Of a stretch of DNA of 55,558 nucleotides, positions 3,784 through 55,558 are shown one piece after another (position 1 is the stretch's first letter; every line of letters begins with the position of its first letter). A program made the position numbers and the translations under genes. The notes below the pieces were generated by a model, which saw only the letters and a list, made by a program, of their open reading frames with translations, did no database searches and had not been told where the DNA came from. This DNA comes from a virus (lineage: Duplodnaviria; Caudoviricetes). The stretch spans positions 1 to 55,558 of IMG/VR virus record IMGVR_UViG_3300017912_004183; one strand, given 5' to 3'.

Positions 3784-4328
3784 AGTGGTTTTCCTTGAGC
3801 ATCAAGTATATTATACATAGTATACTTGAAACTGACCTCAGATGTAAAGTACTCGATACTGGTGTCGGTTGCATCAAAATCTAGAGTTGTCAAGCTATAG
3901 GGAAATAAATCTTTAAAACTAATTTCAAATTTTGGTATGTAGTTACTGCTCAATACCTGCAGCGTACCATCAGAGTAAATATCTTGCCCATCAGTACTAA
4001 TTGGATAATTGGGGTCATTTTCTAGATCAGAAAATTGCATAGAATTTTCCGGAAATCCAAGTCCTCTTATCCATTTTTGTATTTCCAAATAATTTGTTAG
4101 ATCTTCATCTACTAAAAATCTTATTTTTAAATCGCCAAACTCTATAATCTCACCTGGTTGTGGGATTGGTCTGTAGTAGTTTGGTTGAACTGTCATTCCT
4201 AAAGTTAAATCAGGTATATTTGCTTTATTGCAAAAGAATGATGCTTTAGGACTTCTATTGATAAGAAATTTAAATCCTACAGGAGCAAGAAAATTTCTAT
4301 TATCAATTTGTTTTGAAAAATCGGACAT
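3780..4328 (-). CDS. gp3: Tail tube terminator / tail completion protein
   Basis: NRNFLAPVGFKF, FLVDEDLTNYLEIQKW and FKDLFPYSL motifs; downstream of gp23. Confidence 0.9.
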   Translation of the reverse strand: MSDFSKQIDNRNFLAPVGFKFLINRSPKASFFCNKANIPDLTLGMTVQPNYYRPIPQPGEIIEFGDLKIRFLVDEDLTNYLEIQKWIRGLGFPENSMQFSDLENDPNYPISTDGQDIYSDGTLQVLSSNYIPKFEISFKDLFPYSLTTLDFDATDTSIEYFTSEVSFKYTMYNILDAQGKPL

Positions 4329-39100: not shown

Positions 39101-42100
39101 GAAAGTTCTTTCAAATATTTTAACACCATTATTTGTCAATTCAAATTCTTTTTTTATACTGGTACTTGTTCCTGTATAAGATCCAAGATAGCTGCCAATG
39201 AATCCATTCATATCAGTATCCACTCTATTATCATCTTGAACTCTTAATGCTGACATGAAGATATTCACATGAGTACTAATATTTGGTGATGGGGTGAATA
39301 AAATTTGAGTTTTGTACTTATTGTCCGAACCATCTAAAATAATTCTGGAACTGATGTTCCCCAAAGATTCTCCGGGATCAGTGTTGACTGTTCCAAATGT
39401 AGTATTGTATGTTTCGTATATTGGTATTCCCAACTGATAGCTATCAACAACAACAAATTCATTTAATTCTATTCTATGGTTTGGACCAGTTGTAGTATCT
39501 GTGATTTGGACAATTGCATATGCAGCATCATATGCACCATGTGTATCATACTCTGCTATTACTGTTTCTTGGGGGTTGATGGATGCTGGTATAGATGTAG
39601 TTTCAGATACAAATGTTGCATTCTTTAAATATTCTGTCTGTGAACCAATAGAATTTTCATCCTCTAATGCAATAACATATGTATTAATAACTGCAGCACT
39701 TACATTGAAATTTTGATGTGGTGTAAAATTAACTACCAACTTTGATTGCTGAATAGATGCATCAAATGTTCCAAATCCAGCATCACTATGCTCTTCTATA
39801 TTTGTGGTTAGTTTTCCAAGTTCCAGAAGATGAACTGTTGACCCATCATTTATAATATTCAACTCTACAACATGATATTCTTTAATAGCTGCTAGAGGAT
39901 TTTGATCTATTTGAACAATTAACTTCATAGATGTATATGAAGAGTCCAATTCAAAGATTTTAGTCGTACCATTTGGTATTGACAATCCTTCAGATCTTAT
40001 TAATGTAGATCCAATAGGATTATTTTCAATACTCGAAATCGTATCTCCCAAATTAAATGATATTGCTGCAACATCATAATTATTAATTTCATATCTTTCT
40101 GGATAGAAATTCAACAATCCTTGATTTCCAAAAGTTGTATAGTCGAATGATCCCAAATCATATTCAGTTTCGACCACAGCATATTGGTTTATATATCCAT
40201 TAAAATTATCACTAATCATATCGATTATTGTGATCTGTCTTTGCTGGGTATATCTTCTATCTTTAATAAGAGTGATAAATTTTGAATATCTTATTTCTCT
40301 ATTATTGAATACAGCTACAGTACTATATTTTGTGGATCTTGGGTTACTATCAAATAAAACAGATAAATCATCAATTTCTAAAACTCTGTTTCCAACAGAT
40401 TCAGAATAATCACCCAAAACTCTACTATTAAATATGATTTTGTTTGATATACCATTTACATCATTCTCTGATACCAAATCAAAATCAGAAAACGAATTTA
40501 AGTTGACCTTTCCAATCAAATCATTAACCTGTTCAAAAGAACCGCTAGATATTCCAACTACCATAGATCCTGGAATGCTTGGAGTTGATTCTATTTGGTA
40601 ATCAGAAAACTTCTTAAATCCAGCTACATGGGTCAATGGAGATACGTCATCATTCCATGTTTCATAAGGAATTCTAGATTTTATAGAATATGAGAAATTT
40701 TGATAGTAATCACTATCTTGCAATCTTTGGAAATCATTATTTAAGAATCCAGATACTGTTTTTGATTTATTTCTAATTTGTAAAGAAGATCCTAGTGGCA
40801 GATGTGATTTTAATCTAAAAGAAGATATAACCTCTCCTTCTGCTTTTGAAGAAGATCCCTTTACTCTTGATCCTATATCATATATTTCATTGGATATAAT
40901 ATGCATGAATCCAGTTTCTTTTTCCCAATGCTGAATACTACCATAGCTCTTTTTACCTTTTATTTCTTCATTTATTTGATAGGACTCTCTACTTAAAAAA
41001 TCACTCTGTACTAAAGAGATATCAAATTTTGGGAAATACGATTCCGGTATTATTCTTCCAAATGAACTTACTTCATCATAAATTCCAGCATTTTCTCCTG
41101 GATCAAATAAATCTGACATACTATATGATATACTACCATAACCACCACCAATACTCTCAACAGTAGAAGATGCAGTGAATAATTTATAATTATAATCTTC
41201 AGAATTAAATCCAATTCCACCTGGTTTTACAGATGTACTTTCTACTAAGAACTTATCACCTGGTTTGATTGGAAAATCTTCAGAATCGCTATATTGAGTA
41301 GATAATACTATTGTTGTATCATGATTGTCCGGATTATATGAAATAGTACTAATACCAATACCATTATTATTGTGAATTGGAATTATAGATGGTATAGCAT
41401 TACTAAGATTATGAGTATTTTGAATAATAGATACTTGGGAATTTCCAATCTCGTATTTTAAATCTAAATCTTCAATAACTTCATCTGTAACCAAATCTTT
41501 CACAATTAACTTTGGTGGTACTAGATAAGCTTTTCCAAAATCAGTTAAAGATATTGATTCTACAGAATATAGTGGATTTACTTTCAAGATTTGAGTGAAT
41601 GATACTGTTGGTCTTAAAGTTTCGTCAGATGGGTAATTTTTCTTCAGATCAGATATCTTAACATTGTTAATTTTTCCAATTGAACTACTAAATGGTTCTA
41701 ATAAAGCATTAATTCCAGCATCACTATCTACCCCAGAAATTCTAGGAATTTTTTTATACCCTTTGCCGGGATTTGTGACAATTATTTTAGAAATAGGACC
41801 CTGTGCAGTTAATGAAGAAGTTTCGTAGGATATATCTGATGTACTAGATGTATATTTGTCTTTTTCGCAAATTTCATTAGTTCCAAACTTTATTTCATCA
41901 TTGGAAACTACTTGGGATTTGTATTTTCCATTATAATTGCTCTCACCGATAGAAATAGTTGACATTCCAAGAATTTCGACATCAGCTACTGGATACCTCT
42001 TTGAATCCGGCATGCCATCTTTAAATATTGGCGTCAATTTGTAAAAAATCGTATCTGGGCAATTTTCATCAATTTTTAATGTTATTGTAGCCCCTGAATC

Positions 42101-45100
42101 AATACCGATGTCCCCAACTCTTTTTATATCACCAATAGAATCTTGCCATTTTATTGTCATCTTATTGTCGATATAAAAATCTAACCTAAATGCACTATAT
42201 CGTATAGATTGGATTAAATATGATAAAGATTCATCTGATACGTTGAATACTATGGTCGAATCTCTATATAATTTTATTTTAGGACTAATAGAACTAATAT
42301 CTCCAGATGATGGGGTATTTACAGATATAAACTTATTCTGAGTCGAATCAGAATAAGAGTTTGACAATGCAATTGTATCAGAATCGATAACTACGATGTA
42401 ATATATTCTATCTGACTCCAAAGTATCGGATGGATTTGATGAGGTGTAGATTACCTTATCTCCAGTACTAAAGCTATGATTCTGTATTTTAATTGTATTA
42501 TTTAAAAGATCAAAATCTGAGTCTACAAATGATTTTTTATTTACAACTAATCTTCTGTTAGTTTCGTTATAAGAAATATAAAATGTGAAAGTTTCTTTTG
42601 GATTTACACTAACAAATATTTCATCACCATTTGATAATCCATGATCCGTATCAGTTTTTATCTTAATCTCATTTTTAGAGACATTACCAATAGTCGTGTC
42701 ATAATTCGTAACAAAACTGTGGTTTTCTCCCAGTCCAACCCCTTCAAAATAAAGCGTTCTACTTGCCTCAAAACCGCTCTGAAGACCTACAAACTCCCCC
42801 TTACCATCTAACCCCACCCTTACAGTGGATATTCCAATTAAGTCCTTTGATATTCTAGCTACAAACAAATTCTGACCATCTGAGAGTGGCGTATCAAGTC
42901 CAACATTTTCTTCAGAAAAAACAATTGCATCTCCACCATTTAAATTATATGTGATAGAATCTCCTGTGATTAAACCATGATCTTTAAGATAAATTGATTT
43001 TGGTGGAACATATAAATCTCCATCCTCAGTAGATACTAAAGTTGCTGATCCGGATCCTAACCCAAGAGATTGCGATGGACTAAAGTAAAATTCCTTGTTG
43101 GATTTCAGATTAAATGACTCATTTGATAAAATTGTCAATTTTCTAGAAAGTTCGCTTAAACCTGAGAATATACTATGAGCTGCCCCCACAGTATTATCAT
43201 ATCCTCTTAATACTCTTAATTTGGACTGAGTTTTATATACATTCAGAACTTTTACCTTTTCTGAGTCGATCTGTAGAATATCATTTTCTCTTATTCTGTC
43301 TGCAGATAAATTTCCAACAACACTAAATTGGGTAATAATTCCAGTTTGGGATGAATCAAGAATATTTTCAGATATTTTTAAAATATTTTCATTAACCTTT
43401 GCAGTGTATACTCCACCCAATTCAAAATTATTAGACAAACCATCAACACTTATGATATCGTTATTGTTTAGATTGTGTGGTAATTGAGAAGTAACAATAT
43501 ATTCATTTTTTCTATTTGTTGAGGATATTTCTATATCATCAACTTTAACATTTTCTGAAGTTATTTCATTTACAGATTTTCCCTTGATTCTGAATACTTC
43601 TGCAGATGCATTTTCCCCATCACTATCAATATTGTCAAAAATTACTTTATCTCCGACTTTATAAGAATCTCCTGAATTTTTTACGATTATTGATTCAATA
43701 TTGCCAAGATTGATTGAATTAACCGTCAATCTTTGTGAGGATATATCTGGTAAATCTAAGTACTCGTAATCTTCATCTAAATTGTATGGTGAAGTATTTC
43801 TTGCCCAATTATTATTAAATACATATTCACTTTGATTTGATGATTTTTCAAAATTAAAATCTATTGGAGAATTATTGAAAGAATCTCCAATTAAATATGG
43901 GAATTGTGGTTTTTTATATCTTATAAACTTTCCAGATGATTCTACAGAAACTGGGTTGACAGTTGAAAAATATGCATATGTCCCTTCTGGAAAATCTGGA
44001 GTTATACAGAATCTTCCATTATTTTCATCTAGAACATCTTCATCTGTAGAATCAAAGTACGTATAATCTTCGACGAAGAATCCCTCTGGATATATTCCAG
44101 TGGGGGGTCTATTTGGTTTCAAATCTAATCTATATCCAGATTTCATTTGTGCAATTGAACCACCATCTATTCTAGAATATCCATATGGACCATAAATTGG
44201 GTTTCCATCATAAGCCCAACCTATAATTGGAGAGTGATCTACCGATTCAATTTCTTTATTATTATTTTTTCTTAAATCTTTTGAACCATATATTTCATTT
44301 CCGGTTGAATCTATTGAATTTAAAGATTCTCTTAATGATCTTGGTGCATAAATGTATGAGCATTGCAATCCATAGTTATCATTTATAGAATTTGCTATAA
44401 TTACATCATCTTGTTCTATATCATTGATATTCTTCTCAAACAAGTTTATATTCCACGACTGAATCTTAGTATTAAACTTTGCTTCCTGTCCGGGTGATTC
44501 TATAATTATGAAAGTTTCTTGACTATATCCAAATCCACTATTTACTACCTTAATTTCTCGTAAAAATCCATTTTCTACTATTGGAGTTAATACAGCTCCA
44601 GATCCTTCTCCAACAATTCTTAAATTCGGAGTAGAAGTATAATTTCTACCTTGATTTAGGATAATTATATCAACAATTTCTCCATTATTCACGACTGGAC
44701 TTGCTTGTGCGCTTACACCAGAGTCTAGATAAACATCTGGTGTCCTATTATAATTTACAATTTCAGAAGATCCATATCCATGTCCACCATTCGATAAATG
44801 TACACTTTCGACTTGTCCCTTAAAAATAGGTTGTACTTTAACTTCAAAATTTTCTTGTCCGATTGCAGAAATACCAATTTTGCTTGATATCTTTACTTGT
44901 ATCTCTGGGCAATTAAATATATGATTGCCACTTCCATATGAAGTTAAGTTTACGTATTGCTTATTTTTGTAGAATATGTCTTTGTCATCATTATCAACAT
45001 GAGAAAGAATAAATTCATTAGAATTTATTGCAGTAACGATATACTCATCACCTATAACTAATCCACCAATTGCAGTTCCTGTGGTAGAAAAATATTTAAT

Positions 45101-47947
45101 ATATTCCCCAGAAGTGTACCTATGATTTTCAATGTAAAAAGAGTTCTTCTGTAAGTTTATATGATCTTCTTTTACTATTCTCTTTTTATTTTGATAATTG
45201 ATGCCACTACTAATAATATTGAATGATTCTACACATTGCTTATTTTCGGTAGATTCTAAACTATGATACCCCTTACCAATAGAAGTTAAACTTACTACAT
45301 TTGTTCCAGAAATCGCATCATTTCTTGTTTCATGCAATAAAACAGTGACATCATCCTGTACAGAAACATAATATGCAGATCCATTAGCAATACCACCAAT
45401 TGTCTGTTGATCATTTGTCTTATATAAAACACTTTCACCGGTTTTAAATTTATGATAAGTAGAAAAACCAATAGTGTTATTGACAGTAGAAATTGATAAT
45501 GAATTAAAATCCTCTGAATGGATTATTTTCTTCATATTTGTAGAAATCTTTGCACCAACTCCATTTCCGCCAACTATTGTAATAATTGGTGGTTCTTGAT
45601 AATCAAAACCTGGATCTATAATTTGTATCTCCTCCAGAGATCCAGATATATCAACAAATCCTTCAGCATCTTGCCCATATTGATCAGAAATGACTAAATT
45701 TGGTGGATTTATGATATCATAATCAAATCCATTAGAAATTACATCAATTTTTTCAATTTTTCCGTAATTTATTGAATATTGTGATTTATAATTTAGAATT
45801 TCTGTTCCATTGATCAGAATTCCAGTAAATCCTGGACCTGTTTTTACTTTTTCAGAAGTTTTTTCTGGTTTTTGTAATTTTCTTGTTAAAAGTTGATTTC
45901 CAATCGATTTTTCTTTAAATTCATATGGTTCTATGGTGTTATTTTCGACTATTTTTTGAGAATTTAAAGAAATGAACTTCGATTTATCAATATTTGATAA
46001 ACTTAACGAAAATTTAACCTCTGTAGCGGAGATTCTCTTGATAAAGTACAAACCTTCTTCAAATATTGAAGATTTTGTAACTTCAGTCTCTGTAAAACCA
46101 AGGAGTGACTCATCTGGATCTTCATCTATGACTATTTCTACCTCTGGTTTGTAGTAAATTGCATCGCCAGTGTAAAAACCATGATCTCCTGACTGTACAA
46201 TTTTGAATATTTCTGAATTTTCTACAAAAGTTCCAGAAAAAGTGACTTTTTTTCCTCCAGTTTTTACCAAATTTGATGGTATTGAGGATGATGCGATCAA
46301 ATGTTGATCCTTAGTATTGTGTTTGTATACATTTTGTACGTCTGTTAAGAAAAAATTGTTGGATTTGTGTATATTCCTTCTAACTTTTAACCTATCTTCA
46401 GACAATGCAACTTCACATCTTACAATCAAACTAGTATCTGACACTATTTCGGATACTGACCCCAATTTTTCAGAAGAATCTGGAAAAATTATAGTAACAG
46501 AGTCGCCCTCTCTAAAATAATGTGATTTTTTTAAATTAATTTGATATGTATTGTCAGACTGATCGATTAAAATGGACTCGTCAATCTTGAAAACCGCAGA
46601 ATTGTTGTATGCCCAGTGATGATCTTTGATAGTTTCTCCACTATATCCAAGAGTTTTGAACTGTATTGGGAGATTTTTATGATATCCATAATTTTCATCA
46701 GAAAATTCTATGCTTTGTGGTATTGAATTGACTCTTACTTGAATTATGTCATCACCAGACTTTGCATATGCGAATGTATCAATCGATATTGTATAAGAAT
46801 CTAATATTTTTTTAGTAACATTAGAACAACCAAAGAATTGATTGAGTGATTTTGATGTATATGTGACGGATCCAATTGTCTGATCCTCATATACCACATA
46901 TAATTCCCCATCATTCGGGAAACCAATAGTAGAATCGACAGTTATAACTGTAGAATTTGCCAGTATATCGCCAATAACCTTTGTTTTTGGATGTACAGTA
47001 AAGGATCCAGATATAGAACTTTTTAATCCAATGTCCCTATTGGATCCGTCACCAGAATCCAACCTAGCTTTATAATAAACATCTCCTCCCGGATCACTAA
47101 TTTTTTCAATAATCGTAATTGGTGAGAATGCTTCTCCAAAAATATCCTTATATGGGTCTTGATATAAAGTGGAAAGATTTAACTTTTCTGGATCTCCTGA
47201 TATAACTTCTAATACTATTTCATCATATATATCATAATTTGAGTTAGATGGAGTAAATATATAATTTTTAGGACTGATAATGTCAATTTTTTCACCATAA
47301 AGTAACTTGAAGAGTAATTCAAATCCAGTTTTTGTTCCTTTTACTGCATAGAAATCTCTACTTTTCTGTAAAAAAAGATTTTCATCTACAGAATCTGCAA
47401 ATTTCTTATTTTCCAGTCCCGGTAGGAACTGGTATTTCATTTTTGTGAACATTTCTTTCAAGAAAAGTACGCTAAGATTTTCTATTTTTGCGCCCTGATC
47501 ATGACTAGAAACTCTGGTCTTTTCAAATGTTAGATCACCTAAGTTATTATCATCTACAAACTTTGTTATACCACTAAAACCACGAATACATCCAGTAAAA
47601 GAGAACGCAGTTTTTCCTCTATATGTAATAACTTCATCATCAATTTTAAGAAGTCCAAATGATTCTGGGAACCCAGTTGTTCCTGTTGGAGATGTTGTTG
47701 GGTCAATATGAATTGTACTATCAAATAAACTTACATCTCTCAGCAAATATACAGAATCTTTTATGTTTGATAATGCATCAATCCCAACATACTTATCAAT
47801 ATTTTGTATCAAATCAAGCGGTCCACCCTGATATTCCTGTCCAATGTAATATTGCTCTAGAAATTTTTCAAATATGGGGTATTGTTCACGAACATAGTTC
47901 GGAATCTGACTTTTTAATACTTGACTAATCTGAATTCTTTCGGACAT
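36131..47947 (-). CDS. gp7: Baseplate wedge initiator (giant cyanophage form)
   Basis: 3938 aa following gp6; DFYAVKGT..GF..LFKLLYG, HSPIIGWAYDGNPIYGPYGY, LDENNGRFCITPDFPEGTYAYF and LQDSDYYQNFSY motifs. Confidence 0.88.
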   Translation of the reverse strand: MSERIQISQVLKSQIPNYVREQYPIFEKFLEQYYIGQEYQGGPLDLIQNIDKYVGIDALSNIKDSVYLLRDVSLFDSTIHIDPTTSPTGTTGFPESFGLLKIDDEVITYRGKTAFSFTGCIRGFSGITKFVDDNNLGDLTFEKTRVSSHDQGAKIENLSVLFLKEMFTKMKYQFLPGLENKKFADSVDENLFLQKSRDFYAVKGTKTGFELLFKLLYGEKIDIISPKNYIFTPSNSNYDIYDEIVLEVISGDPEKLNLSTLYQDPYKDIFGEAFSPITIIEKISDPGGDVYYKARLDSGDGSNRDIGLKSSISGSFTVHPKTKVIGDILANSTVITVDSTIGFPNDGELYVVYEDQTIGSVTYTSKSLNQFFGCSNVTKKILDSYTISIDTFAYAKSGDDIIQVRVNSIPQSIEFSDENYGYHKNLPIQFKTLGYSGETIKDHHWAYNNSAVFKIDESILIDQSDNTYQINLKKSHYFREGDSVTIIFPDSSEKLGSVSEIVSDTSLIVRCEVALSEDRLKVRRNIHKSNNFFLTDVQNVYKHNTKDQHLIASSSIPSNLVKTGGKKVTFSGTFVENSEIFKIVQSGDHGFYTGDAIYYKPEVEIVIDEDPDESLLGFTETEVTKSSIFEEGLYFIKRISATEVKFSLSLSNIDKSKFISLNSQKIVENNTIEPYEFKEKSIGNQLLTRKLQKPEKTSEKVKTGPGFTGILINGTEILNYKSQYSINYGKIEKIDVISNGFDYDIINPPNLVISDQYGQDAEGFVDISGSLEEIQIIDPGFDYQEPPIITIVGGNGVGAKISTNMKKIIHSEDFNSLSISTVNNTIGFSTYHKFKTGESVLYKTNDQQTIGGIANGSAYYVSVQDDVTVLLHETRNDAISGTNVVSLTSIGKGYHSLESTENKQCVESFNIISSGINYQNKKRIVKEDHINLQKNSFYIENHRYTSGEYIKYFSTTGTAIGGLVIGDEYIVTAINSNEFILSHVDNDDKDIFYKNKQYVNLTSYGSGNHIFNCPEIQVKISSKIGISAIGQENFEVKVQPIFKGQVESVHLSNGGHGYGSSEIVNYNRTPDVYLDSGVSAQASPVVNNGEIVDIIILNQGRNYTSTPNLRIVGEGSGAVLTPIVENGFLREIKVVNSGFGYSQETFIIIESPGQEAKFNTKIQSWNINLFEKNINDIEQDDVIIANSINDNYGLQCSYIYAPRSLRESLNSIDSTGNEIYGSKDLRKNNNKEIESVDHSPIIGWAYDGNPIYGPYGYSRIDGGSIAQMKSGYRLDLKPNRPPTGIYPEGFFVEDYTYFDSTDEDVLDENNGRFCITPDFPEGTYAYFSTVNPVSVESSGKFIRYKKPQFPYLIGDSFNNSPIDFNFEKSSNQSEYVFNNNWARNTSPYNLDEDYEYLDLPDISSQRLTVNSINLGNIESIIVKNSGDSYKVGDKVIFDNIDSDGENASAEVFRIKGKSVNEITSENVKVDDIEISSTNRKNEYIVTSQLPHNLNNNDIISVDGLSNNFELGGVYTAKVNENILKISENILDSSQTGIITQFSVVGNLSADRIRENDILQIDSEKVKVLNVYKTQSKLRVLRGYDNTVGAAHSIFSGLSELSRKLTILSNESFNLKSNKEFYFSPSQSLGLGSGSATLVSTEDGDLYVPPKSIYLKDHGLITGDSITYNLNGGDAIVFSEENVGLDTPLSDGQNLFVARISKDLIGISTVRVGLDGKGEFVGLQSGFEASRTLYFEGVGLGENHSFVTNYDTTIGNVSKNEIKIKTDTDHGLSNGDEIFVSVNPKETFTFYISYNETNRRLVVNKKSFVDSDFDLLNNTIKIQNHSFSTGDKVIYTSSNPSDTLESDRIYYIVVIDSDTIALSNSYSDSTQNKFISVNTPSSGDISSISPKIKLYRDSTIVFNVSDESLSYLIQSIRYSAFRLDFYIDNKMTIKWQDSIGDIKRVGDIGIDSGATITLKIDENCPDTIFYKLTPIFKDGMPDSKRYPVADVEILGMSTISIGESNYNGKYKSQVVSNDEIKFGTNEICEKDKYTSSTSDISYETSSLTAQGPISKIIVTNPGKGYKKIPRISGVDSDAGINALLEPFSSSIGKINNVKISDLKKNYPSDETLRPTVSFTQILKVNPLYSVESISLTDFGKAYLVPPKLIVKDLVTDEVIEDLDLKYEIGNSQVSIIQNTHNLSNAIPSIIPIHNNNGIGISTISYNPDNHDTTIVLSTQYSDSEDFPIKPGDKFLVESTSVKPGGIGFNSEDYNYKLFTASSTVESIGGGYGSISYSMSDLFDPGENAGIYDEVSSFGRIIPESYFPKFDISLVQSDFLSRESYQINEEIKGKKSYGSIQHWEKETGFMHIISNEIYDIGSRVKGSSSKAEGEVISSFRLKSHLPLGSSLQIRNKSKTVSGFLNNDFQRLQDSDYYQNFSYSIKSRIPYETWNDDVSPLTHVAGFKKFSDYQIESTPSIPGSMVVGISSGSFEQVNDLIGKVNLNSFSDFDLVSENDVNGISNKIIFNSRVLGDYSESVGNRVLEIDDLSVLFDSNPRSTKYSTVAVFNNREIRYSKFITLIKDRRYTQQRQITIIDMISDNFNGYINQYAVVETEYDLGSFDYTTFGNQGLLNFYPERYEINNYDVAAISFNLGDTISSIENNPIGSTLIRSEGLSIPNGTTKIFELDSSYTSMKLIVQIDQNPLAAIKEYHVVELNIINDGSTVHLLELGKLTTNIEEHSDAGFGTFDASIQQSKLVVNFTPHQNFNVSAAVINTYVIALEDENSIGSQTEYLKNATFVSETTSIPASINPQETVIAEYDTHGAYDAAYAIVQITDTTTGPNHRIELNEFVVVDSYQLGIPIYETYNTTFGTVNTDPGESLGNISSRIILDGSDNKYKTQILFTPSPNISTHVNIFMSALRVQDDNRVDTDMNGFIGSYLGSYTGTSTSIKKEFELTNNGVKIFERTFDSEDELTVNLEDSLLTVENHFFVSGEPIKYKPGNYDGVFSAIEIEPTSFSGIGVTDRLPTDLFAVKVSNDEIQFASSAKNALKFTPEVIKFKNFGVGTSHKISARDQNGKALISVDNVVQSPIVSTTLTTLVAEEVYTVNDTIAFDDITGFYSGDLIRIGEEIMRIDAVGVQNQNLVRVRRDQLGTKVSGYPVGTTITKISGNFNIVDNMLYFIDPPYGTVPISNPLGSPEDRDWDGVGSSSTFNGRIFLRSGIPNTSQEPYSTNYVFDDISDQFDAVEKEFILKSEGSNISGIENGIILINGMFQYPNGVNFEIESSTLSGLTTMTFSGQSRTITNDVGISSFPKGGQIVSVGSSEGFGYQPLITAGGSASLNANGEIDSISIGNSGSGYRSGFQVVNVSVRNSSNERVQVGTADVVDGRVTGVTITNPGSGYLVEPEVIFDSPLGYSDLPLVYANNTTGTGIGASISVVVGQESRVIDFSITNSGYGYKSGDRLTVPITSSVGIQTNTNFTEFIITVDRISTDKFSGWTLGELEVMDNIEPYIDGEAKMFPLLKNNKEKSILAQRGSDIVLQNLLIIFVNSILQVPGKAYDFNGGSMVEFREPLRKGDTVDIMFYKGSGEVDVIPKNVIDTVKTGDDLQIVNDPSVGQSLFLKEDLRIAEDVRSTNIVLTNPYYGPGNVDQESLLRPIIWTRQTEDRIINDIPVGKDRELYEPVINPVAFLLNQVGVGQTTLYVDNIKPAFDPRNESIITRSFQKNITFIAQDDIKVEDAKVLTYSGDYGVIVGFGVTSNPTNKAIFDLYIPEDSILRDASIVGTATTVSELSIGDYFCVHSSNINADSSLYPLLSYNEDRTQLVGVTQSFVDSVFVVQSAQDIQKNVNGVSVTVRRVFCNIKQEGDSFSFDSDTVTFDSTVETFDNNETIISTGTVYNGAISTEPYIGEYSWGKIILGNRTKHYNYTASILSGYDGISSSTIIKRSVPLQHSDYSP

Positions 47948-49886: not shown

Positions 49887-50294
49887 TTATCTAGTTGGCT
49901 GTAAAACAAATTCTAATCTCTGTACTTGCGAATTGATGTCAATTCCAATAATTTCAAATGTAATTGTTACATTGAATTCATTGCCATCATAGTTTGGACT
50001 TACATCAACTCCTATTAATCTCACTCGTGGTTCATAATTAATAATCGAAGCACGAATCTTACCCTGGATCACAGATGAAGTGATTTCATCTAAGTTTTCA
50101 AATAGTGCATTCTCTATATCAGATCCAAATCTGGGATCAAAAAATTTTTCGCCATACTGAGTATATACAATATTACGAATAGATCTCGCAATTGCAGTTT
50201 CGTTACTAATTGTAATGATATCATCAGTTAAAGGATTCCTTTTGAAAGATAAACTAATATCTTTGAATCCTTTACTGACTCTCTCTAAAGGCAT
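49887..50294 (-). CDS. gp25: Baseplate wedge subunit / sheath initiator
   Basis: FKDISLSF..NP, AIARSIRNIV.T..GEKFF.P.FGS and YEPRV motifs. Confidence 0.95.
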   Translation of the reverse strand: MPLERVSKGFKDISLSFKRNPLTDDIITISNETAIARSIRNIVYTQYGEKFFDPRFGSDIENALFENLDEITSSVIQGKIRASIINYEPRVRLIGVDVSPNYDGNEFNVTITFEIIGIDINSQVQRLEFVLQPTR

Positions 50295-51885: not shown

Positions 51886-52230
51886 CTAATCGCCACAATG
51901 TGTGTCTACCAGTTGCCAAGTCCTCACCATCATTTCCGTCTGATCCTTTAACCTGTGCTCGTAATATCTGCGCCTTGAGTAAGCATTAACCCTACAAGAA
52001 GGCGGCAAAATCATATGTCCGTACTCATAAAATGCGGACTCCAACATATCGTAGTTGCAACGATTAAGCAAAGAAGTAATAAACTCTAGCGCCATTTTTT
52101 CGCTTGATGAACCATTCACTTGCAAGTGCTCGAAGTACACTTTGACCTCAGATTTGTTGCACCAGGTTTGTATAAACTCATCGCAATTAACAGGAGTGCG
52201 ATCAGCGTAAGGAAGGAACTTAAAAGGCAT
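51886..52230 (-). CDS. Hypothetical protein (early-type region)
   Basis: 114-aa ATG ORF co-oriented with its neighbours. Confidence 0.6.
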   Translation of the reverse strand: MPFKFLPYADRTPVNCDEFIQTWCNKSEVKVYFEHLQVNGSSSEKMALEFITSLLNRCNYDMLESAFYEYGHMILPPSCRVNAYSRRRYYEHRLKDQTEMMVRTWQLVDTHCGD

Positions 52231-52249
52231 GGGACTGAAGAATAGGGTG

Positions 52250-52288
52250 GAAAAATGTAAAGAATAGGGGGAGGATTAGTCCCCCTAT
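52250..52288 (-). terminator. Probable terminator
   Basis: 9-bp stem ATAGGGGGA/TCCCCCTAT (52264-52288) followed by a T-rich tract on the minus strand, just after the stop at 52292. Confidence 0.6.
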
Positions 52289-52291
52289 GTA

Positions 52292-52621
52292 TCAAAGACG
52301 CATCGAAGAAAAGAAAGGAACAGTGCTTAAACCTTGTACAGTGTTCATGGTAACAAACCACTCACCTTTCTCCTGGAAAACTCTATCACCGGGTTCACCA
52401 TGCTCAGAGAGAATGGCATTAAGGCGGGATTTTGTGGTCTTAGTTTGATGGTCACCGTCGAAAAGGCGGATCAAATTCTCACCAACCTCAGCGATTTTGT
52501 TGCCATAGAGATGAACATAGGAGATCTGTTCTAGGGGATCATAGGTAACAACAGTGTGTCCAGATCGCCAGTCCCGGCAGTCGCTGATGGCGGCGTTCAT
52601 CTGCTCTTCAATCTTACGCAT
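52292..52621 (-). CDS. Cyanophage early-type hypothetical protein (109 aa)
   Basis: Probable start MRKIEEQMNAAI...W.SG.T.V; contains V.LYGNKIA and TTKSRLNAIL; the ORF-track N-terminal extension overlaps the promoter. Confidence 0.75.
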   Translation of the reverse strand: MRKIEEQMNAAISDCRDWRSGHTVVTYDPLEQISYVHLYGNKIAEVGENLIRLFDGDHQTKTTKSRLNAILSEHGEPGDRVFQEKGEWFVTMNTVQGLSTVPFFSSMRL

Positions 52622-52687
52622 TGGAGTGGGGGGTGAACTCGACATACACAGTGTCGCCCAGATCTCCGGATCTGTCACTAGGGCATT

Positions 52688-52868
52688 GTGCCACTATGCC
52701 GGGTGGTTTGGAATGTTAAGTTTTGTCAAAGTTTGGCGGATCTGCCACGGTACTGCCTCCCGGTGCGCTACACTATAGGGGACAACCAAACGAGGGGTGA
52801 GGTAACCCTGCTGACGACAATGATCGCCACTCCCCCTGCAATGAAATAATTGTTTCATTATGTTACAA
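52688..52868 (+). repeat. Intergenic module copy A (about 180 bp, similar to 53521-53700)
   Basis: Shared blocks GTGCC..., TGGTTTGGAATGTTA, CGGATCTGCCAC, CCGGT.CGCTA.A.T, AGGGGACAA, the 57-nt core and TTATGTTACA. Confidence 0.85.
52792..52848 (+). ncRNA. 57-nt structured repeat element, copy 1 (putative ncRNA)
   Basis: GAGGGGTGAGGTAACCCTGCTGACGACAATGATCGCCACTCCCCCTGCAATGAAATA; -10 TACACT at 52769-52774. Confidence 0.55.
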
Positions 52869-52886
52869 AACCCCTGTCAAGGGGTT

Positions 52887-52912
52887 GTGTGCCAGTTTGT
52901 GGACTGGCACAC
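52887..52912. promoter_or_regulatory. Palindromic operator-like box
   Basis: GTGTGCCAGT-TTGTGG-ACTGGCACAC, a perfect 10-bp inverted repeat; family members near 52688, 53521, 53701, 54826, 54985, 55008 and 55152. Confidence 0.7.
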
Positions 52913-52926
52913 CGTAACATAAAGTA

Positions 52927-53463
52927 TCAATTAGCGGTGAGATATTCCAACAGACTGCCATCATAATCCTCGGGCAATTCGTCGCGTCGAGTAACAAAAA
53001 TAGAGACCTTATTCTCCCAACGATTAACAGTGTTTTCCAATACATTCAGGCGCTCTTTAATGTCCATGGACTCCCAATACTCTACCGCTTCTTCCCACTG
53101 CATCTTGCTATAGTGTTCATCACTAGCGACCGGATAATCTGCCAGAAAGCAACACCATTCTTCCGCTACTTTTAGTGCTTCGGCATCACTTTTGTGGATT
53201 AAGAGTTGTTCATACCAACCACAACCCCAGTGTCCGAATCGATGGATCTCAGTATCATTGTGCTTCGCTACTTTCAGAATCTCATCAGTCACCACCTCCC
53301 AATTTGAGCGGGTTAAGATATCAGCATCACGAGATGTTGATACTGGGGCAAGGAAATAGTGATCGCGAAGATGATCCGAATCTCCACTAAAGTTGCGGGC
53401 AGAATCAAAACCAGTGGGATGATCCCACTGCTCAAGGTGTTCGGGGACGAAGGTGACTTGCAT
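52927..53463 (-). CDS. Hypothetical protein (178 aa)
   Basis: Probable start MQVTF at 53463; contains SNWEV, RFGHWGCGWYEQLLI and LADYPVASDEHYS. Confidence 0.72.
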   Translation of the reverse strand: MQVTFVPEHLEQWDHPTGFDSARNFSGDSDHLRDHYFLAPVSTSRDADILTRSNWEVVTDEILKVAKHNDTEIHRFGHWGCGWYEQLLIHKSDAEALKVAEEWCCFLADYPVASDEHYSKMQWEEAVEYWESMDIKERLNVLENTVNRWENKVSIFVTRRDELPEDYDGSLLEYLTAN

Positions 53464-53520
53464 TGCTGTTGTGCAACTAAGGGAACAATAAGCGGTTACA
53501 GGATGAAAACCAGGGTGACT

Positions 53521-53700
53521 GTGCCGGTTTGCCGACTGGTTTGGAATGTTACGAGATGTTAAAGGTTCTCGGATCTGCCACACTGCCCCCATCCGGTACG
53601 CTATAATTAGGGGACAATCAAGAGAGGTGCGGGGCAGCACTGTAGACGACAAAGGGCGACACTCACCCTGCAATGAAATAATTATTAAATTATGTTACAG
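53521..53700 (+). repeat. Intergenic module copy B
   Basis: Colinear with 52688-52868. Confidence 0.85.
53624..53680 (+). ncRNA. 57-nt structured repeat element, copy 2
   Basis: GAGGTGCGGGGCAGCACTGTAGACGACAAAGGGCGACACTCACCCTGCAATGAAATA; -10 TATAAT at 53602-53607. Confidence 0.55.
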
Positions 53701-53734
53701 GTGTGCCACTTTATGAACTGTCACAGTGCCACTT
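53701..53734. promoter_or_regulatory. Palindromic operator-like box plus half-site
   Basis: GTGTGCCACTTTATGAACTGTCACAGTGCCACTT, between convergent element copies 2 and 4. Confidence 0.65.
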
Positions 53735-53760
53735 TTATATGTGGTTTTGTTACATAATTG

Positions 53761-53817
53761 TATTTTATGGCAGGGTCAGTGGCGATCGTTGGCGTCTCCG
53801 GTGCTACCCCACACCTC
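53761..53817 (-). ncRNA. 57-nt structured repeat element, copy 4 (inverted)
   Basis: Minus strand GAGGTGTGGGGTAGCACCGGAGACGCCAACGATCGCCACTGACCCTGCCATAAAATA; extended -10 TGCTAAGAT at 53867-53875. Confidence 0.55.
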
Positions 53818-53922
53818 AACAGGTTGTAACAATCAGAGCATAATGCTGCCTCCCTTGACTGATCTAATCTTAGCACGGCAGGAGCAGATCCGTGACCCAC
53901 TCCGTTACATAATGAAATCTTA

Positions 53923-54180
53923 TCACTTTGCCAGCATAGAGTTTGAGTGATATTGTGCAGCGATTGCCTTCGCTAAATGTCTGAAAAAATGATGAATGTC
54001 GCCGTTACATACATCTAACTGCAACAATATATTTGAGATCTTTGCTCTCTCATCTCCTTTTGTTGATAGGATTTTCTCGATCACCACATCTGTTGTGATT
54101 ATGTGAGTCCATCCATCAATCTCAACTTCATAACATTGGATGTCCAAATCTTTCTCTTCAAAGAATACTTCAAGGTTCAT
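53923..54180 (-). CDS. Hypothetical protein (85 aa)
   Basis: ATG ORF with FFEEKDL and NGDIHHFFRHLAKA. Confidence 0.7.
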   Translation of the reverse strand: MNLEVFFEEKDLDIQCYEVEIDGWTHIITTDVVIEKILSTKGDERAKISNILLQLDVCNGDIHHFFRHLAKAIAAQYHSNSMLAK

Positions 54181-54228
54181 GATGATGACGAAGATGATGT
54201 TAGCGAAGGTGATGATTGTGAAGGTGAT

Positions 54229-54465
54229 TCAATACTGTGGGTTGATAAACATCACAGTACATGATCCACGCGGGCGAAGAACAATCATCTCGCCCAATTC
54301 TTCTCGGTCACACTTTACGCCAGATAATCCCACTGCTTCCTTACATGCTAGGACAATCTGTCGATCAGTGGCACAATCTGAGAGAGTTACTGTCTCCCGC
54401 TCACACCAACTATAGTTTGCATCACCGCCAAATGTGTCGGTGTATTCAACAAGAAAGTTCTGCAT
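54229..54465 (-). CDS. Hypothetical protein (78 aa)
   Basis: ATG ORF with VEYTDTFGGDANYSW. Confidence 0.7.
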   Translation of the reverse strand: MQNFLVEYTDTFGGDANYSWCERETVTLSDCATDRQIVLACKEAVGLSGVKCDREELGEMIVLRPRGSCTVMFINPQY

Positions 54466-54503
54466 TGTTCAAAAGAAGAATAAAGTTTGCTGGTAAAATC
54501 TTA

Positions 54504-54767
54504 TCAGGTATGAGTGCTGCCATCAGGTAACATGCAACCATGAAGACCACAGTTTGGCAGAATGCCTTCAATGATGACACTGTAGGTGCCATTATGATGG
54601 TTTCCTTGTACATCTTCCTCCACCATTAACCCTTGCATAAGTTCAACAACACTCTTGCCTGTTTGTATGCTCCACATAGAAAACTTTGCGAGTTGCTGAT
54701 AAGTCAGAACCTGGAAGTGATCGCCCAGGGTTCCATCAGATTCGAGAAGTGGTGCTCTGTAACGCAT
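54504..54767 (-). CDS. Hypothetical protein (87 aa)
   Basis: ATG ORF preceded by extended -10 TGCATAAT and an operator-like box; ends GCMLPDGSTHT. Confidence 0.7.
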   Translation of the reverse strand: MRYRAPLLESDGTLGDHFQVLTYQQLAKFSMWSIQTGKSVVELMQGLMVEEDVQGNHHNGTYSVIIEGILPNCGLHGCMLPDGSTHT

Positions 54768-54898
54768 TTGGTTGGTTGCGATTGATCTAATTATGCAGCA
54801 GATCCGGCATCTTGCCTACCCCATAGGACCACTAAACCAACTGTCCACGGATGCCCTCAGAGACCCCTGAGAGGCGCTACAATATAAGCAAATCAAAC

Positions 54899-54955
54899 GA
54901 GAGGTGGGGTAACCTCGATGACAACAATAATCGACACTATCCCTGCCATAAAATA
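54899..54955 (+). ncRNA. 57-nt structured repeat element, copy 3
   Basis: GAGAGGTGGGGTAACCTCGATGACAACAATAATCGACACTATCCCTGCCATAAAATA; -10 TACAAT at 54878-54883. Confidence 0.55.
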
Positions 54956-54984
54956 ACTATAAGAATATAAAGAATTGTTACAAT

Positions 54985-55030
54985 GTGCCAGTTTGTCAAG
55001 TGTCACAGTGCCAGTTCATAAAGTGTCCAC
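54985..55030. promoter_or_regulatory. Tandem palindromic operator-like boxes
   Basis: GTGCCAGTTTGTCAAGTGTCAC-A-GTGCCAGTTCATAAAGTGTCCAC. Confidence 0.7.
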
Positions 55031-55217
55031 TCGGTCCTACTGCCTCCCTCCCATGCTCCACCCTTCTAGTGTAGGCGCTCCCGCTCGGCGGCGCTGTATA
55101 AACCGCTACAGTTTTATGAATTGTCACAAAGACACATAAAGTACTGGCACTGTGACAGTTCGCGAAGTGTCCACTGTGTGAAAACCGCGACTTTATGAAT
55201 TTTTATGGCGGGGGTGC

Positions 55218-55246
55218 TTGACAAAACGGCGATCGTGTGATAACAT
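55218..55246 (+). promoter_or_regulatory. Sigma70-like promoter with no downstream ORF
   Basis: TTGACA-N17-TAACAT with an extended TG. Confidence 0.6.
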
Positions 55247-55260
55247 GCCGCCCAAGATCA

Positions 55261-55300
55261 CAAGGTCTCGGAGGGTTTCAGAGGGTCTCAGAGGGTTTCA
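55261..55300. repeat. 10-bp tandem repeat
   Basis: GAGGGT(T/C)TCA three times (55271-55300) plus a degenerate CAAGGTCTCG. Confidence 0.8.
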
Positions 55301-55558
55301 TAATACTTTACATAAGATTTTGAAATATAAACATTACTTATATTTGATATAAGAAAAACAAATACATCATGCCCTAGCAGATAATTACATACATGCCAAG
55401 AGATAAGTAACAAAATTTAAGATAAGTTTTGTTACATATTATTTTCCACAATTCCACAAAGTATTCCACAGGTATTATGCCCCCTGGGGGGATGATCGTG
55501 AAGATGATGTTAGTGAAGGTGATTATTAGAAGGTAGTTTATGATAGTGAAGATGATAC

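What the first reader, a model, noticed from the sequence alone, without database searches (positions are those of the whole stretch)
52792..54955. Family of four promoter-associated, ORF-less 57-nt elements with a covarying hairpin and possible pseudoknot (candidate novel phage ncRNA)
Seen: four ungapped copies at 52792-52848(+), 53624-53680(+), 53761-53817(-) and 54899-54955(+), consensus GAGRKGYGRGGYARCMYYGNWGACRMCAAHRRKCGMCACTNNCCCTGCMATRAAATA. The 4-bp stem changes sequence but keeps pairing (GGGG/CCCU, GGUG/CACU, GGUG/CACC, GAGG/CCUC) around an 8-nt loop YGRGGYAR. GYGRGG can alternatively pair with the invariant CCCUGC (one mismatch in copy 1), giving a pseudoknot or switch. G-U pairs fix the orientation. 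Each copy lies downstream of a -10-like hexamer on the same strand (TACACT, TATAAT, TACAAT at 15-17 nt; TAAGAT at 49 nt) and is followed by an AT-rich tail ending in TGT(T/A)AC, with no ORF. I do not recognise it as a known ribozyme, riboswitch or tRNA. Inference: multicopy early small RNAs, for example protein sponges, anti-defence decoys or replication primers. A single-stranded DNA signal is an alternative.
Basis: partly seen in the sequence, partly recalled or inferred. Interest (0 to 1): 0.85.

Follow-up and report, generated by a model that had tools for sequence, protein, structure and literature searches.

The report
Undescribed small RNA family in cyanophages
The four repeats are real and belong to a widespread family of short, promoter-driven, hairpin-forming RNA genes of T4-like cyanophages that matches no catalogued RNA family and sits at the conserved joints between swapped gene cassettes.

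Summary
Four copies sit at the stated coordinates, and none are expected by chance. The window is a fragment of a Kyanoviridae (T4-like) cyanophage whose genes all lie on the minus strand.

The copies belong to a large family. I found 92 copies with 55 distinct cores, in 72 of 117 metagenome stretches and 11 of 11 IMG/VR stretches. None was found in 185,579 cellular genomes.

The hairpin is 5 bp with a 6-nt loop, not 4 bp with 8 nt. It pairs in 275 of 275 cells, three pairs show compensatory changes, and 44 G-U pairs fix the strand. A -10 box precedes 73 of 74 contexts. No reading frame is open, and Rfam 15 has no match.

The pseudoknot is not supported.

Copies usually lie antisense to their neighbours and face the terminator of the convergent gene. 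Against a 207-kb relative, the element blocks are conserved while the genes between them are swapped.

The best reading is an independently transcribed small structured RNA. Its function is unknown, and transcription itself has not been shown.

The parts
52792..52848 (+). Element copy 1 (core). P1 hairpin is 52794-52798 paired with 52805-52809.
   Evidence: Model R1 scores 69.9 bits. Its positional orthologue in the 207-kb relative shares 53 of 61 bases.
52769..52774 (+). -10-like hexamer TACACT, 17 nt before copy 1
   Evidence: A -10 box is present in 73 of 74 family contexts, against 23.5 of 74 after shuffling.
53624..53680 (+). Element copy 2 (core)
   Evidence: R1 scores 69.0 bits. Its orthologue differs at core positions 5 and 16, a compensatory U-A to G-C change.
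53602..53607 (+). -10 hexamer TATAAT, 16 nt before copy 2
53761..53817 (-). Element copy 3 (core). It is the only copy on the gene strand and converges on copy 2.
   Evidence: R1 scores 61.0 bits. The same convergent pair is kept in two related phages.
53837..53842 (-). Candidate -10 hexamer TATGCT, 19 nt before copy 3
   Evidence: It is a weaker match (4 of 6).
54899..54955 (+). Element copy 4 (core)
   Evidence: R1 scores 68.1 bits.
54878..54883 (+). -10-like hexamer TACAAT, 15 nt before copy 4
52654..52913 (.). Conserved intergenic junction block 1, holding copy 1, its upstream region, a terminator and a palindrome
   Evidence: 77% identical to G001 184019-184277, while the genes on both sides are not homologous.
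53513..53954 (.). Conserved junction block 2, holding copies 2 and 3 and the hairpins between them
   Evidence: 85% identical to G001 185062-185491.
54836..55470 (.). Conserved junction block 3, holding copy 4 and the palindromes
   Evidence: 87.5% identical to G001 186807-187437.
52871..52883 (-). Terminator-like hairpin of the convergent minus-strand gene (52927-53466), about 25 nt beyond copy 1
   Evidence: An opposite-strand terminator lies at element positions about 75-105 in 49 of 74 family contexts.
53728..53745 (+). Terminator-like hairpin between the convergent copies 2 and 3
52889..52910 (.). Palindrome GTGCCAGTT-N4-AACTGGCAC (1 mismatch). Further copies lie at 53703-53724 and 54985-55006.
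   Evidence: 3 hits against 0.01 expected. The same motif flanks the P-SSM2 and S-SRM01 copies.
52292..52621 (-). Neighbouring gene of the Kyanoviridae Gp96 family. It fixes the taxon and the coding strand.
   Evidence: PF23790, E 6.7e-38
52927..53466 (-). Cassette gene (179 aa, no family) between copies 1 and 2. The relative has an unrelated gene here.

Best explanation
Each copy is a small, independently transcribed, structured non-coding RNA gene. The family is confined to T4-like cyanophages (Kyanoviridae and their uncultured kin).

Inferred from sequence: host RNA polymerase starts at a -10-type promoter 10-17 nt upstream. The RNA opens with a short A-rich leader, then a 5-bp hairpin (P1) with a 6-nt, usually RGGGUA, loop. 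An A-rich spacer follows, then a nearly invariant pyrimidine-rich stretch (CACU..CCCUGC) and an AU-rich tail.

In most genomes the gene points against its neighbours and runs into the terminator of the convergent upstream gene. The RNA or its read-through is therefore antisense to that gene's 3' end.

My inferred mechanism is not shown. The conserved 5' module (hairpin plus C-rich single strand) would be a binding module for a conserved partner, either a purine-rich RNA of Shine-Dalgarno type or a protein. The variable 3' part would act in cis on the convergent cassette gene, as lambda OOP RNA does on cII.

The element-bearing intergenic blocks also serve as conserved homology at which gene cassettes are exchanged between related phages.

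Shown: the family, the strand, the hairpin, the promoter box, the non-coding nature, the phage specificity and the junction position. Inferred: transcription itself, the ends of the RNA, the partner and the effect.
For: Repeat reality: 4 hits, 0 expected by chance.

Family size:
- 72 of 117 metagenome stretches and 11 of 11 viral stretches carry a full copy.
- That gives 92 copies and 55 distinct cores.

Hairpin P1:
- It pairs in 275 of 275 cells.
- 3 of 5 pairs show changes on both sides, and there are 16 distinct helix versions.
- RNAalifold predicts it on its own.
- For the whole tested structure the covariation score is 0.354, against 0.165 +/- 0.013 in shuffles (0 of 500 reach it) and at most 0.103 when partners are slid.

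Strand: 44 G-U cells would be A-C mismatches on the other strand.

Orthologous copies: each window copy is closest to the same-position copy in the 207-kb relative (50-56 of 61 identical, against 38-49 for paralogues). Copy 2 and its orthologue differ by a compensatory U-A to G-C change.

Promoter:
- A TANNNT box ends 5-25 nt upstream in 73 of 74 contexts.
- 36 of these are perfect TATAAT.
- Shuffles give 23.5 of 74.

Non-coding: every frame has stops in 11-39 of 55 members, with no 3-base periodicity.

Orientation:
- ORF cover within 2 kb is 71 kb on the opposite strand against 31 kb on the same strand upstream, and 53.5 kb against 34.8 kb downstream.
- Annotated CDS around the P-SSM2 copy, and the CDS next to the S-SRM01 copies, are on the other strand; S-SRM01 has one same-strand HNH endonuclease gene about 800 nt upstream.
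- An opposite-strand terminator lies at element positions about 75-105 in 49 of 74 contexts.

Specificity:
- A strict pattern gave 0 hits in the cellular-genome collection.
- The looser pattern gave 54 hits, all at 30.1 bits or less, against 58.9 bits or more for true copies.

Carriers: they encode Kyano_Gp96, gp25, gp6 and other T4-like proteins.

Junction role: conserved blocks alternate with non-homologous genes.
Against: - No transcript has been seen. No listed sequencing run holding this DNA is RNA, so transcription, RNA ends and timing are inferred only.
- The hairpin is short. Single-sequence folding of three of the four window copies is no better than shuffles (z -0.31, -0.02, -0.05; copy 4 gives -2.17). 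The minimum-energy folds of three of the four window copies (1, 3 and 4) choose a competing long-range helix instead of P1.
- Only 14 of 74 contexts have a terminator-like site on the element strand. The 3' end is therefore undefined.
- No -35 box is evident.
- Much of the 'invariant' 3' half was imposed by my search pattern. Copies found by synteny and the model vary there.
- No complementary target for the C-rich stretch exists in the window apart from the elements' own opposite strands.
- The element is absent from Syn9, S-PM2, P-HM2 and P-SSM4, so it is not essential to the virus family.
Confidence: 0.68

Rival explanations
1. It is a riboswitch-like or factor-responsive attenuator that gates antisense transcription. 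The conserved 48-nt module would bind a small ligand or protein and decide whether polymerase stops at the U-rich tract just after CCCUGC or reads on, antisense, into the convergent cassette gene.
For: - The size and the many conserved unpaired bases resemble small pseudoknot riboswitches (recalled knowledge).
- 28 of 74 contexts have a U-rich tract starting 0-6 nt after the C-rich stretch.
- Minimum-energy folds pair the G-rich 5' part with the C-rich 3' part, competing with P1.
- The geometry relative to the convergent gene is fixed.
Against: - No long-range helix pairs above what composition predicts.
- 46 of 74 contexts lack the U tract.
- No Rfam riboswitch matches.
- Relatives with an ACGAA loop cannot form the G-rich/C-rich helix in the same way.
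- There is no candidate ligand.
Confidence: 0.12
2. It is a DNA-level element only. The blocks would be promoter/terminator junctions of the PeSL type, or a single-stranded-DNA hairpin signal used in recombination or replication. The conserved core would be a protein-binding or recombination site, not a functional RNA.
For: - The blocks sit exactly at cassette swap points between two related phages.
- They contain terminators, -10 boxes and palindromes.
- G-T pairs are also tolerated in single-stranded DNA.
Against: - A duplex DNA site cannot explain strand-asymmetric G-U pairing (44 cells) or compensatory changes that keep a 5-bp hairpin in 275 of 275 cells.
- PeSLs are defined by a stem-loop, an early promoter, a Shine-Dalgarno sequence and a start codon in the gene's own orientation (PMC4122927, read). 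Here the promoter faces away from the genes and is followed by a conserved 48-nt core.
- Homology for recombination does not need a conserved -10 box at a fixed distance.
Confidence: 0.1
3. It is a primer RNA of R-loop-type replication origins, like T4 oriF/oriG. The promoter-driven transcript would stay hybridised in the AT-rich stretch just downstream and prime leading-strand synthesis.
For: - Each copy is a promoter followed by a structured RNA and then a stretch of 81% A+T, against 40% in the core.
- All four copies cluster in about 2.2-2.8 kb in the window and in the complete relative.
- They lie next to an AT-rich region with an iteron-like repeat, GTGAAGRTGAT, present 10 times against 0.84 expected.
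- The cluster sits at the border between the structural genes and the small-gene region.
Against: - The AT-rich stretch is equally well explained as the U tract of the convergent gene's terminator.
- Priming would send forks head-on into the convergent genes.
- The GC-skew profile shows no inflection at the cluster, although skew there follows transcription.
- P-SSM2 has one copy, elsewhere in its genome.
- A primer does not obviously need this degree of sequence conservation.
Confidence: 0.06
4. It is a 5' leader or cis-regulatory element of a small gene on the same strand.
For: Some copies carry mini-ORFs, such as ATG-AAA-TAA after copies 1 and 2. The 5' arm of P1 resembles a Shine-Dalgarno sequence.
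Against: - No frame is conserved.
- The mini-ORFs are missing from copies 3 and 4 and from most relatives.
- Downstream sequence on that strand is the terminator and antisense of the neighbouring gene.
Confidence: 0.03

Closest known systems
PeSL elements (promoter-early stem-loops) of T4-type phages (Arbiol et al. 2010, listing only; Comeau et al. 2014, PMC4122927, whole text read)
   Same: Both are short conserved intergenic blocks holding a terminator stem-loop and a sigma-70-type promoter box. Both are concentrated in the variable small-gene regions of T4-like genomes. Both lie exactly at insertions or replacements between close relatives.
   Different: PeSLs face the same way as the genes and run straight into a Shine-Dalgarno sequence and a start codon. 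Here the conserved promoter faces the opposite way in 3 of 4 copies. It drives a 48-nt core with a covarying hairpin that is conserved far beyond one phage pair. The one library paper holding both 'PeSLs' and 'cyanophage' that discusses them in a cyanophage judged them unlikely in S-PM2 (PMC4503421, passages).
Lambda OOP RNA and other phage cis-antisense small RNAs such as CfrI of cyanophage S-PM2 (from the table and text of review PMC12197685)
   Same: Each is a small RNA with its own promoter, placed downstream of a gene and transcribed towards it, so that it overlaps that gene's 3' end.
   Different: OOP and CfrI are single-locus RNAs whose sequence is dictated by the gene they oppose. This family keeps the same structured 5' module next to unrelated genes, in several copies per genome and across distant phages.
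Cyanobacterial trans-acting sRNA Yfr1 (its features are recalled from memory, not retrieved)
   Same: As recalled, Yfr1 is a short RNA in which a conserved pyrimidine-rich single strand lies between a 5' hairpin and a 3' hairpin. The hosts are the same ecological group.
   Different: Rfam gives no match on the window or on 10 other loci. The conserved stretch here is CACU..CCCUGC. No copy was found in cellular genomes.
Structured RNAs already known from cyanophages: manA, wcaG, glnA/Downstream-peptide, PhotoRC-II, abiF (Weinberg et al. 2010, PMC2864571, passages; review PMC12197685)
   Same: They occur in the same viruses and environments and were found the same way, by comparative analysis.
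   Different: Those are cis-regulatory 5' UTR motifs with Rfam models, and none matches. This element has no downstream gene on its strand. One marine-only motif in that paper's table, Ocean-VI, has no Rfam accession and is described only in supplements I could not open, so identity with it cannot be excluded.

Membership tests
Any Rfam 15 family (4227 models) | Score at or above the family's gathering threshold, or at least a low E-value | tested here: not met
   There were 0 matches at gathering thresholds on the whole window. At E up to 10 on 52400-55558 only two unrelated chance hits appeared. At E up to 1 on 10 loci with diverse family members only one unrelated hit appeared.
tRNA / tmRNA | Cloverleaf recognised by ARAGORN | tested here: not met
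   0 genes in the window.
PeSL (T4-type promoter-early stem-loop) | Lies at the borders of indels or replacements between closely related phages, in variable regions | tested here: met
   Conserved blocks at 52654-52913, 53513-53954 and 54836-55470 alternate with non-homologous genes when compared with the 207-kb relative.
PeSL (T4-type promoter-early stem-loop) | A stem-loop just upstream of a -35/-10 promoter in the gene's orientation, followed by a Shine-Dalgarno sequence and a start codon | tested here: not met
   The conserved -10 box is on the strand opposite the genes in 3 of 4 window copies and in most relatives. It is followed by a conserved non-coding core. No conserved -35 box was seen.
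Riboswitch / cis-regulatory leader | Sits in the 5' UTR of a regulated gene on the same strand | tested here: not met
   Downstream sequence on the element strand is the convergent gene's terminator and its antisense. The genes flanking the copies in P-SSM2 and S-SRM01 are on the other strand; S-SRM01 has one same-strand HNH endonuclease gene about 800 nt upstream.
Riboswitch / cis-regulatory leader | Ligand-dependent alternative structure | not testable with these tools
   The only finding is that no alternative helix shows covariation.
   Cells are 88.6% paired, but 0 pairs show changes on both sides. Pairing equals the composition expectation in every register. The GAUGUA loops (7 of 55 cores) and the ACGAA-loop relatives lack the G run.
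Cis-antisense small RNA (OOP-like) | Own promoter, convergent with and overlapping the 3' end of a neighbouring gene | tested here: inconclusive
   The geometry fits: an opposite-strand terminator lies about 30 nt beyond the core in 49 of 74 contexts. The transcript and its 3' end have not been observed.
T4-type R-loop origin (oriF/oriG) | A promoter followed by an AT-rich unwinding element, with the transcript priming DNA synthesis | tested here: inconclusive
   The 30 nt after the core are 81% A+T, but that stretch also serves as the neighbour's terminator tail. Priming is not testable here.

The most novel reading that the evidence does not exclude
The element is a portable regulatory module that travels with shuffled gene cassettes. 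Its conserved, partner-binding RNA domain (for a ligand, a protein or an RNA) would sit at the 5' end of an antisense transcript and decide whether that transcript extends into, and silences or processes, the cassette gene it faces. Every cassette picked up at these junctions would then come under one common control signal.
Probability: 0.15. Interest if true: 0.9.

Novelty: new variant of a known kind. Interest (0 to 1): 0.74.

Why it matters
T4-like cyanophages kill a large share of marine Synechococcus and Prochlorococcus, yet almost nothing is known about their own regulatory RNAs. The RNAs described so far are one antisense RNA (CfrI) and a few 5' UTR motifs.

This element is widespread in marine and other aquatic metagenomes. 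It is specific to these phages, shows clear covariation, and has a cultured carrier (P-SSM2) in which it can be tested directly.

It also ties a conserved RNA gene to the junctions where these phages swap accessory genes. That would extend the PeSL idea of cassette shuffling to cyanophages and suggest that the junctions do more than supply homology.

If the RNA has a conserved host or phage partner, it offers a new handle on host takeover in ecologically dominant viruses.

Tried and rejected
- **Rfam and tRNA searches.** These found nothing.
- **blastn against 50,697 phage records.** The 3-kb region gave no match. Short marine copies gave only partial hits (S-CAM9, Klebsiella phages, Bacillus phage), which I judge to be terminator or low-complexity matches, plus S-SRM01, P-SSM2, P-SSM5 and AG-345-F15. 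The S-CAM9 place is the gp23 terminator region, and the model scores only 11.7 bits elsewhere in that genome.
- **Pseudoknot, long-range helix and P2.** The pseudoknot and every other long-range register show no signal above composition. P2 (core 19-21 with 32-34) is weak, with 78% of cells paired. I do not claim it.
- **Coding.** Rejected.
- **Trans target inside the window.** The C-rich stretch matches only the elements' own complements.
- **Host target search.** Not done.
- **Expression.** No RNA holder was listed for window 52600-55100. I did not use read laying because all the listed runs are DNA.
- **Literature.** Nine successful searches found no description of this element. The Syn9 transcriptome paper (PMC5029184) is not held, and Syn9 lacks the element anyway. 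I did not check the marine metatranscriptome sRNA groups of Shi et al. 2009, which I know only from recall.
- **Supplements.** They are closed, so the Ocean-VI motif of Weinberg et al. 2010 could not be compared.
- **Origin check.** GC skew and strand use across the complete relative gave no origin-like inflection.


Full report
**1. The observation**

- The repeat finder gives a three-member direct family (92 nt; 100, 79 and 68% identity) plus inverted matches to 53761-53827.
- A 36-nt degenerate consensus hits exactly the four places with no mismatch. None of 100 dinucleotide-preserving shuffles gave a hit.
- The -10-like hexamers and the TGTTACA/TGTAACA tails are as described.
- No tRNA and no Rfam 15 family matches, either at curated thresholds or at E up to 10.

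**2. What the window is**

It is an IMG/VR virus record estimated to be 26% complete.
- All long ORFs are on the minus strand.
- The ORF at 49887-50294 is a gp25 baseplate wedge protein. The ORF at 52292-52621 belongs to the Kyanoviridae Gp96 family.
- The window is therefore a fragment of a T4-like cyanophage.
- The repeats lie in the spacers between small minus-strand genes, in a stretch that is richer in G+C (43-47%) than the structural genes (about 29-44%, mostly 30-37%).
- Three copies are antisense to those genes. Copy 3 is sense and converges on copy 2.

**3. The family**

Exact-pattern scans found the element well beyond this phage.
- A script separated true copies from chance matches by conserved positions that were not in the pattern. 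It found 72 of 117 metagenome stretches and 11 of 11 viral stretches with a full copy, 92 copies in all and 55 distinct cores. The other 45 metagenome stretches are chance matches.
- A covariance model (R1) scores true copies at 58.9-78.1 bits.
- The same loci hold more divergent copies at 19-54 bits, with altered spacers or loops.
- In the collection of one genome per 185,579 bacterial and archaeal species, a strict pattern found nothing.
- The looser pattern found 54 places, about what chance predicts, and all score 30.1 bits or less.
- Carrier contigs encode gp6, gp25, a UvrD-type helicase, GP88 and GIY-YIG proteins.

Among cultured phages the element is patchy.
- P-SSM2 has one copy at 30.2 bits.
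- S-SRM01 has one or two divergent copies.
- Syn9, S-PM2, P-HM2 and P-SSM4 have none.

**4. Structure**

On the 55 distinct cores the hairpin is 5 bp (core positions 3-7 with 14-18) around a 6-nt loop.
- All 275 cells pair.
- Three pairs show changes on both sides: U-A 26, G-C 25 and A-U 4 at one pair, and five pair types at another.
- There are 16 distinct helix versions.
- RNAalifold predicts this helix and nothing else.
- Forty-four cells are G-U. On the opposite strand they would be A-C, so the hairpin forms on the element strand.

The copies are kept as separate paralogues.
- Each window copy is closest to the copy at the same position in a complete 207-kb relative, G001 (50-56 of 61 bases, against 38-49 for paralogues).
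- Copy 2 and its orthologue differ by a compensatory U-A to G-C change.
- The four are therefore old paralogues kept separately, not recent duplicates.

The other proposed helices do not hold up.
- A second short helix (19-21 with 32-34) is weak, at 78% paired.
- No long-range register pairs better than base composition predicts.
- Seven of 55 cores have GAUGUA loops, and a divergent subgroup has ACGAA loops without the G run.
- I do not accept the pseudoknot. It remains possible only for part of the family.

Two cautions apply.
- Single-sequence folding gives no help: z-scores are -0.31, -0.02, -0.05 and -2.17 for the four window copies. In three of the four window copies (1, 3 and 4) it prefers a G-rich/C-rich long-range helix over P1.
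- GAC, AA, CG.CACT and CC(CTGC) are invariant in my alignment partly because the search patterns required them. Copies found through synteny vary in the C-rich tail.

**5. Signals around the core**

- A TANNNT box with at least 4 of 6 matches to TATAAT ends 5-25 nt upstream in 73 of 74 distinct contexts. Thirty-six are perfect TATAAT, and the distances peak at 10 and at 16-17 nt. Shuffled upstream sequence gives 23.5 of 74.
- No reading frame is open across the family, and variability has no 3-base period.
- The 30 nt after the core average 81% A+T, against 40% in the core. In 28 of 74 contexts a U-rich tract starts within 6 nt.
- A terminator-like hairpin with a T run lies at element positions about 75-105 on the opposite strand in 49 of 74 contexts. 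Only 14 of 74 have one on the element strand, and 11 have both.
- ORF cover within 2 kb favours the opposite strand.
- The annotated genes around the P-SSM2 copy, and those next to the S-SRM01 copies, are on the other strand.

The usual layout is therefore: gene, its terminator, about 30 nt, then the element pointing back at that gene.

**6. Genomic role of the blocks**

- In G001 the model finds four strong copies, all between 184152 and 186921. Almost every gene in that genome is on one strand.
- Aligning the window with that region shows conserved element blocks: 52654-52913 at 77%, 53513-53954 at 85% and 54836-55470 at 87.5%.
- These blocks alternate with genes that have no counterpart: 51889-52653, 52914-53512 and 53955-54178 (ORFs).
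- This is the pattern described for PeSL elements of T4-type phages (PMC4122927, read).
- The architecture differs, however. The conserved promoter faces away from the genes and is followed by a structured core.

Of 80 IMG/VR loci holding a gp25 relative:
- 7 have strong copies, all 2.5-9 kb on the 5' side of gp25;
- 4 have weak copies;
- 69 have none at E up to 0.01.

Three related phages keep the same layout of three antisense copies plus one sense copy.

**7. Explanation**

The data fit a small RNA gene with its own promoter. The evidence is a strand-specific covarying hairpin, a conserved -10 box at a fixed distance, the absence of coding capacity, and conservation of the core next to unrelated genes in distant phages.

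What the RNA does is not shown. I favour a two-part model. The conserved 5' module would bind a conserved partner, and the 3' part or read-through would act as an antisense RNA on the convergent gene, as lambda OOP does (named in the review PMC12197685).

The rivals, each scored in its own section, are:
- a factor-responsive attenuator of antisense transcription;
- a DNA-only junction or single-stranded-DNA signal;
- an R-loop primer;
- a leader of a tiny ORF.

Strand asymmetry and compensatory change argue against a duplex-DNA site. The AT-rich tail and the neighbouring iteron-like repeats keep the origin idea alive but weak.

**8. Novelty**

- No Rfam family matches the window or 10 diverse loci.
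- Nine successful literature searches found no description.
- The known cyanophage RNAs named in what I read (manA, wcaG, glnA, PhotoRC-II, abiF, CfrI) are different things.

Two caveats remain.
- The Ocean-VI motif of Weinberg et al. 2010 has no Rfam accession and is described only in supplements that were closed.
- Older marine metatranscriptome sRNA lists were not checked.

I rate the element as an undescribed RNA family: a new variant of known kinds (phage small RNAs and PeSL-type junctions).

**9. Limits**

- There is no expression evidence, because no RNA run was listed.
- The RNA's 3' end, its timing, its partner and its effect on the phage are unknown.

Noticed in passing
window 52889-52910, 53703-53724, 54985-55006; also L145 (P-SSM2) about 3960-3985 and 4130-4155, and L131 (S-SRM01) about 4450-4472: A 22-bp palindrome, GTGCCAGTT-N4-AACTGGCAC, occurs 3 times in the window against 0.01 expected. 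The same motif flanks the element in P-SSM2. In S-SRM01 it lies about 30 nt before the element's -10 box. In the complete relative, 6 of 8 loose matches lie at 184-191 kb. It could be an operator or an upstream promoter element for a dimeric regulator.
   Followed up: partly
window 54181-54232 and 55491-55558; L003 8748-9069 (beyond the window end): The motif GTGAAGRTGAT occurs 10 times, all on the plus strand, against 0.84 expected. The copies lie in an AT-rich, gene-poor stretch next to the element cluster. The pattern is iteron-like. On the gene strand it reads ATCAYCTTCAC just upstream of a start codon. Its function is unknown.
   Followed up: partly
window 51889-55470 compared with G001 183250-187437: Between two related phages, the genes between the element blocks are swapped for unrelated ones: the Gp96-family gene plus the ORF at 51886-52230, the 179-aa gene, and the 85-aa gene. 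G001 also has an extra 421 nt at 186386-186806.
   Followed up: yes
L071 4509-5243, L034 6857-7645; possibly L004 1348-2145 and S-SRM01 L131 3084-3818: A gene of about 245 aa belonging to the GP88 family (PF17338) lies between two element copies in two metagenome loci. In G001 an ORF of about 265 aa sits between two copies, and in S-SRM01 an annotated 'Gp37/Gp68-like' gene does the same. These last two were not scanned against Pfam.
   Followed up: no
window 52000-55558: G+C is 43-47% here, against about 33% (range 29-44%) across the structural genes. This fits a region of imported cassettes.
   Followed up: no
window 36131-47947 and 20733-27752 (minus strand): There are two very large ORFs of 3938 and 2339 aa in the structural region. 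They were not examined.
   Followed up: no
L034 1663-7845 (plus strand): One metagenome locus carries at least six weak, divergent copies (18.8-23.8 bits) with a short tetraloop-like hairpin and the same CACU..CCCUGC tail. They are spaced about 0.6-1.7 kb apart on one strand, and there is one strong copy on the other strand.
   Followed up: partly
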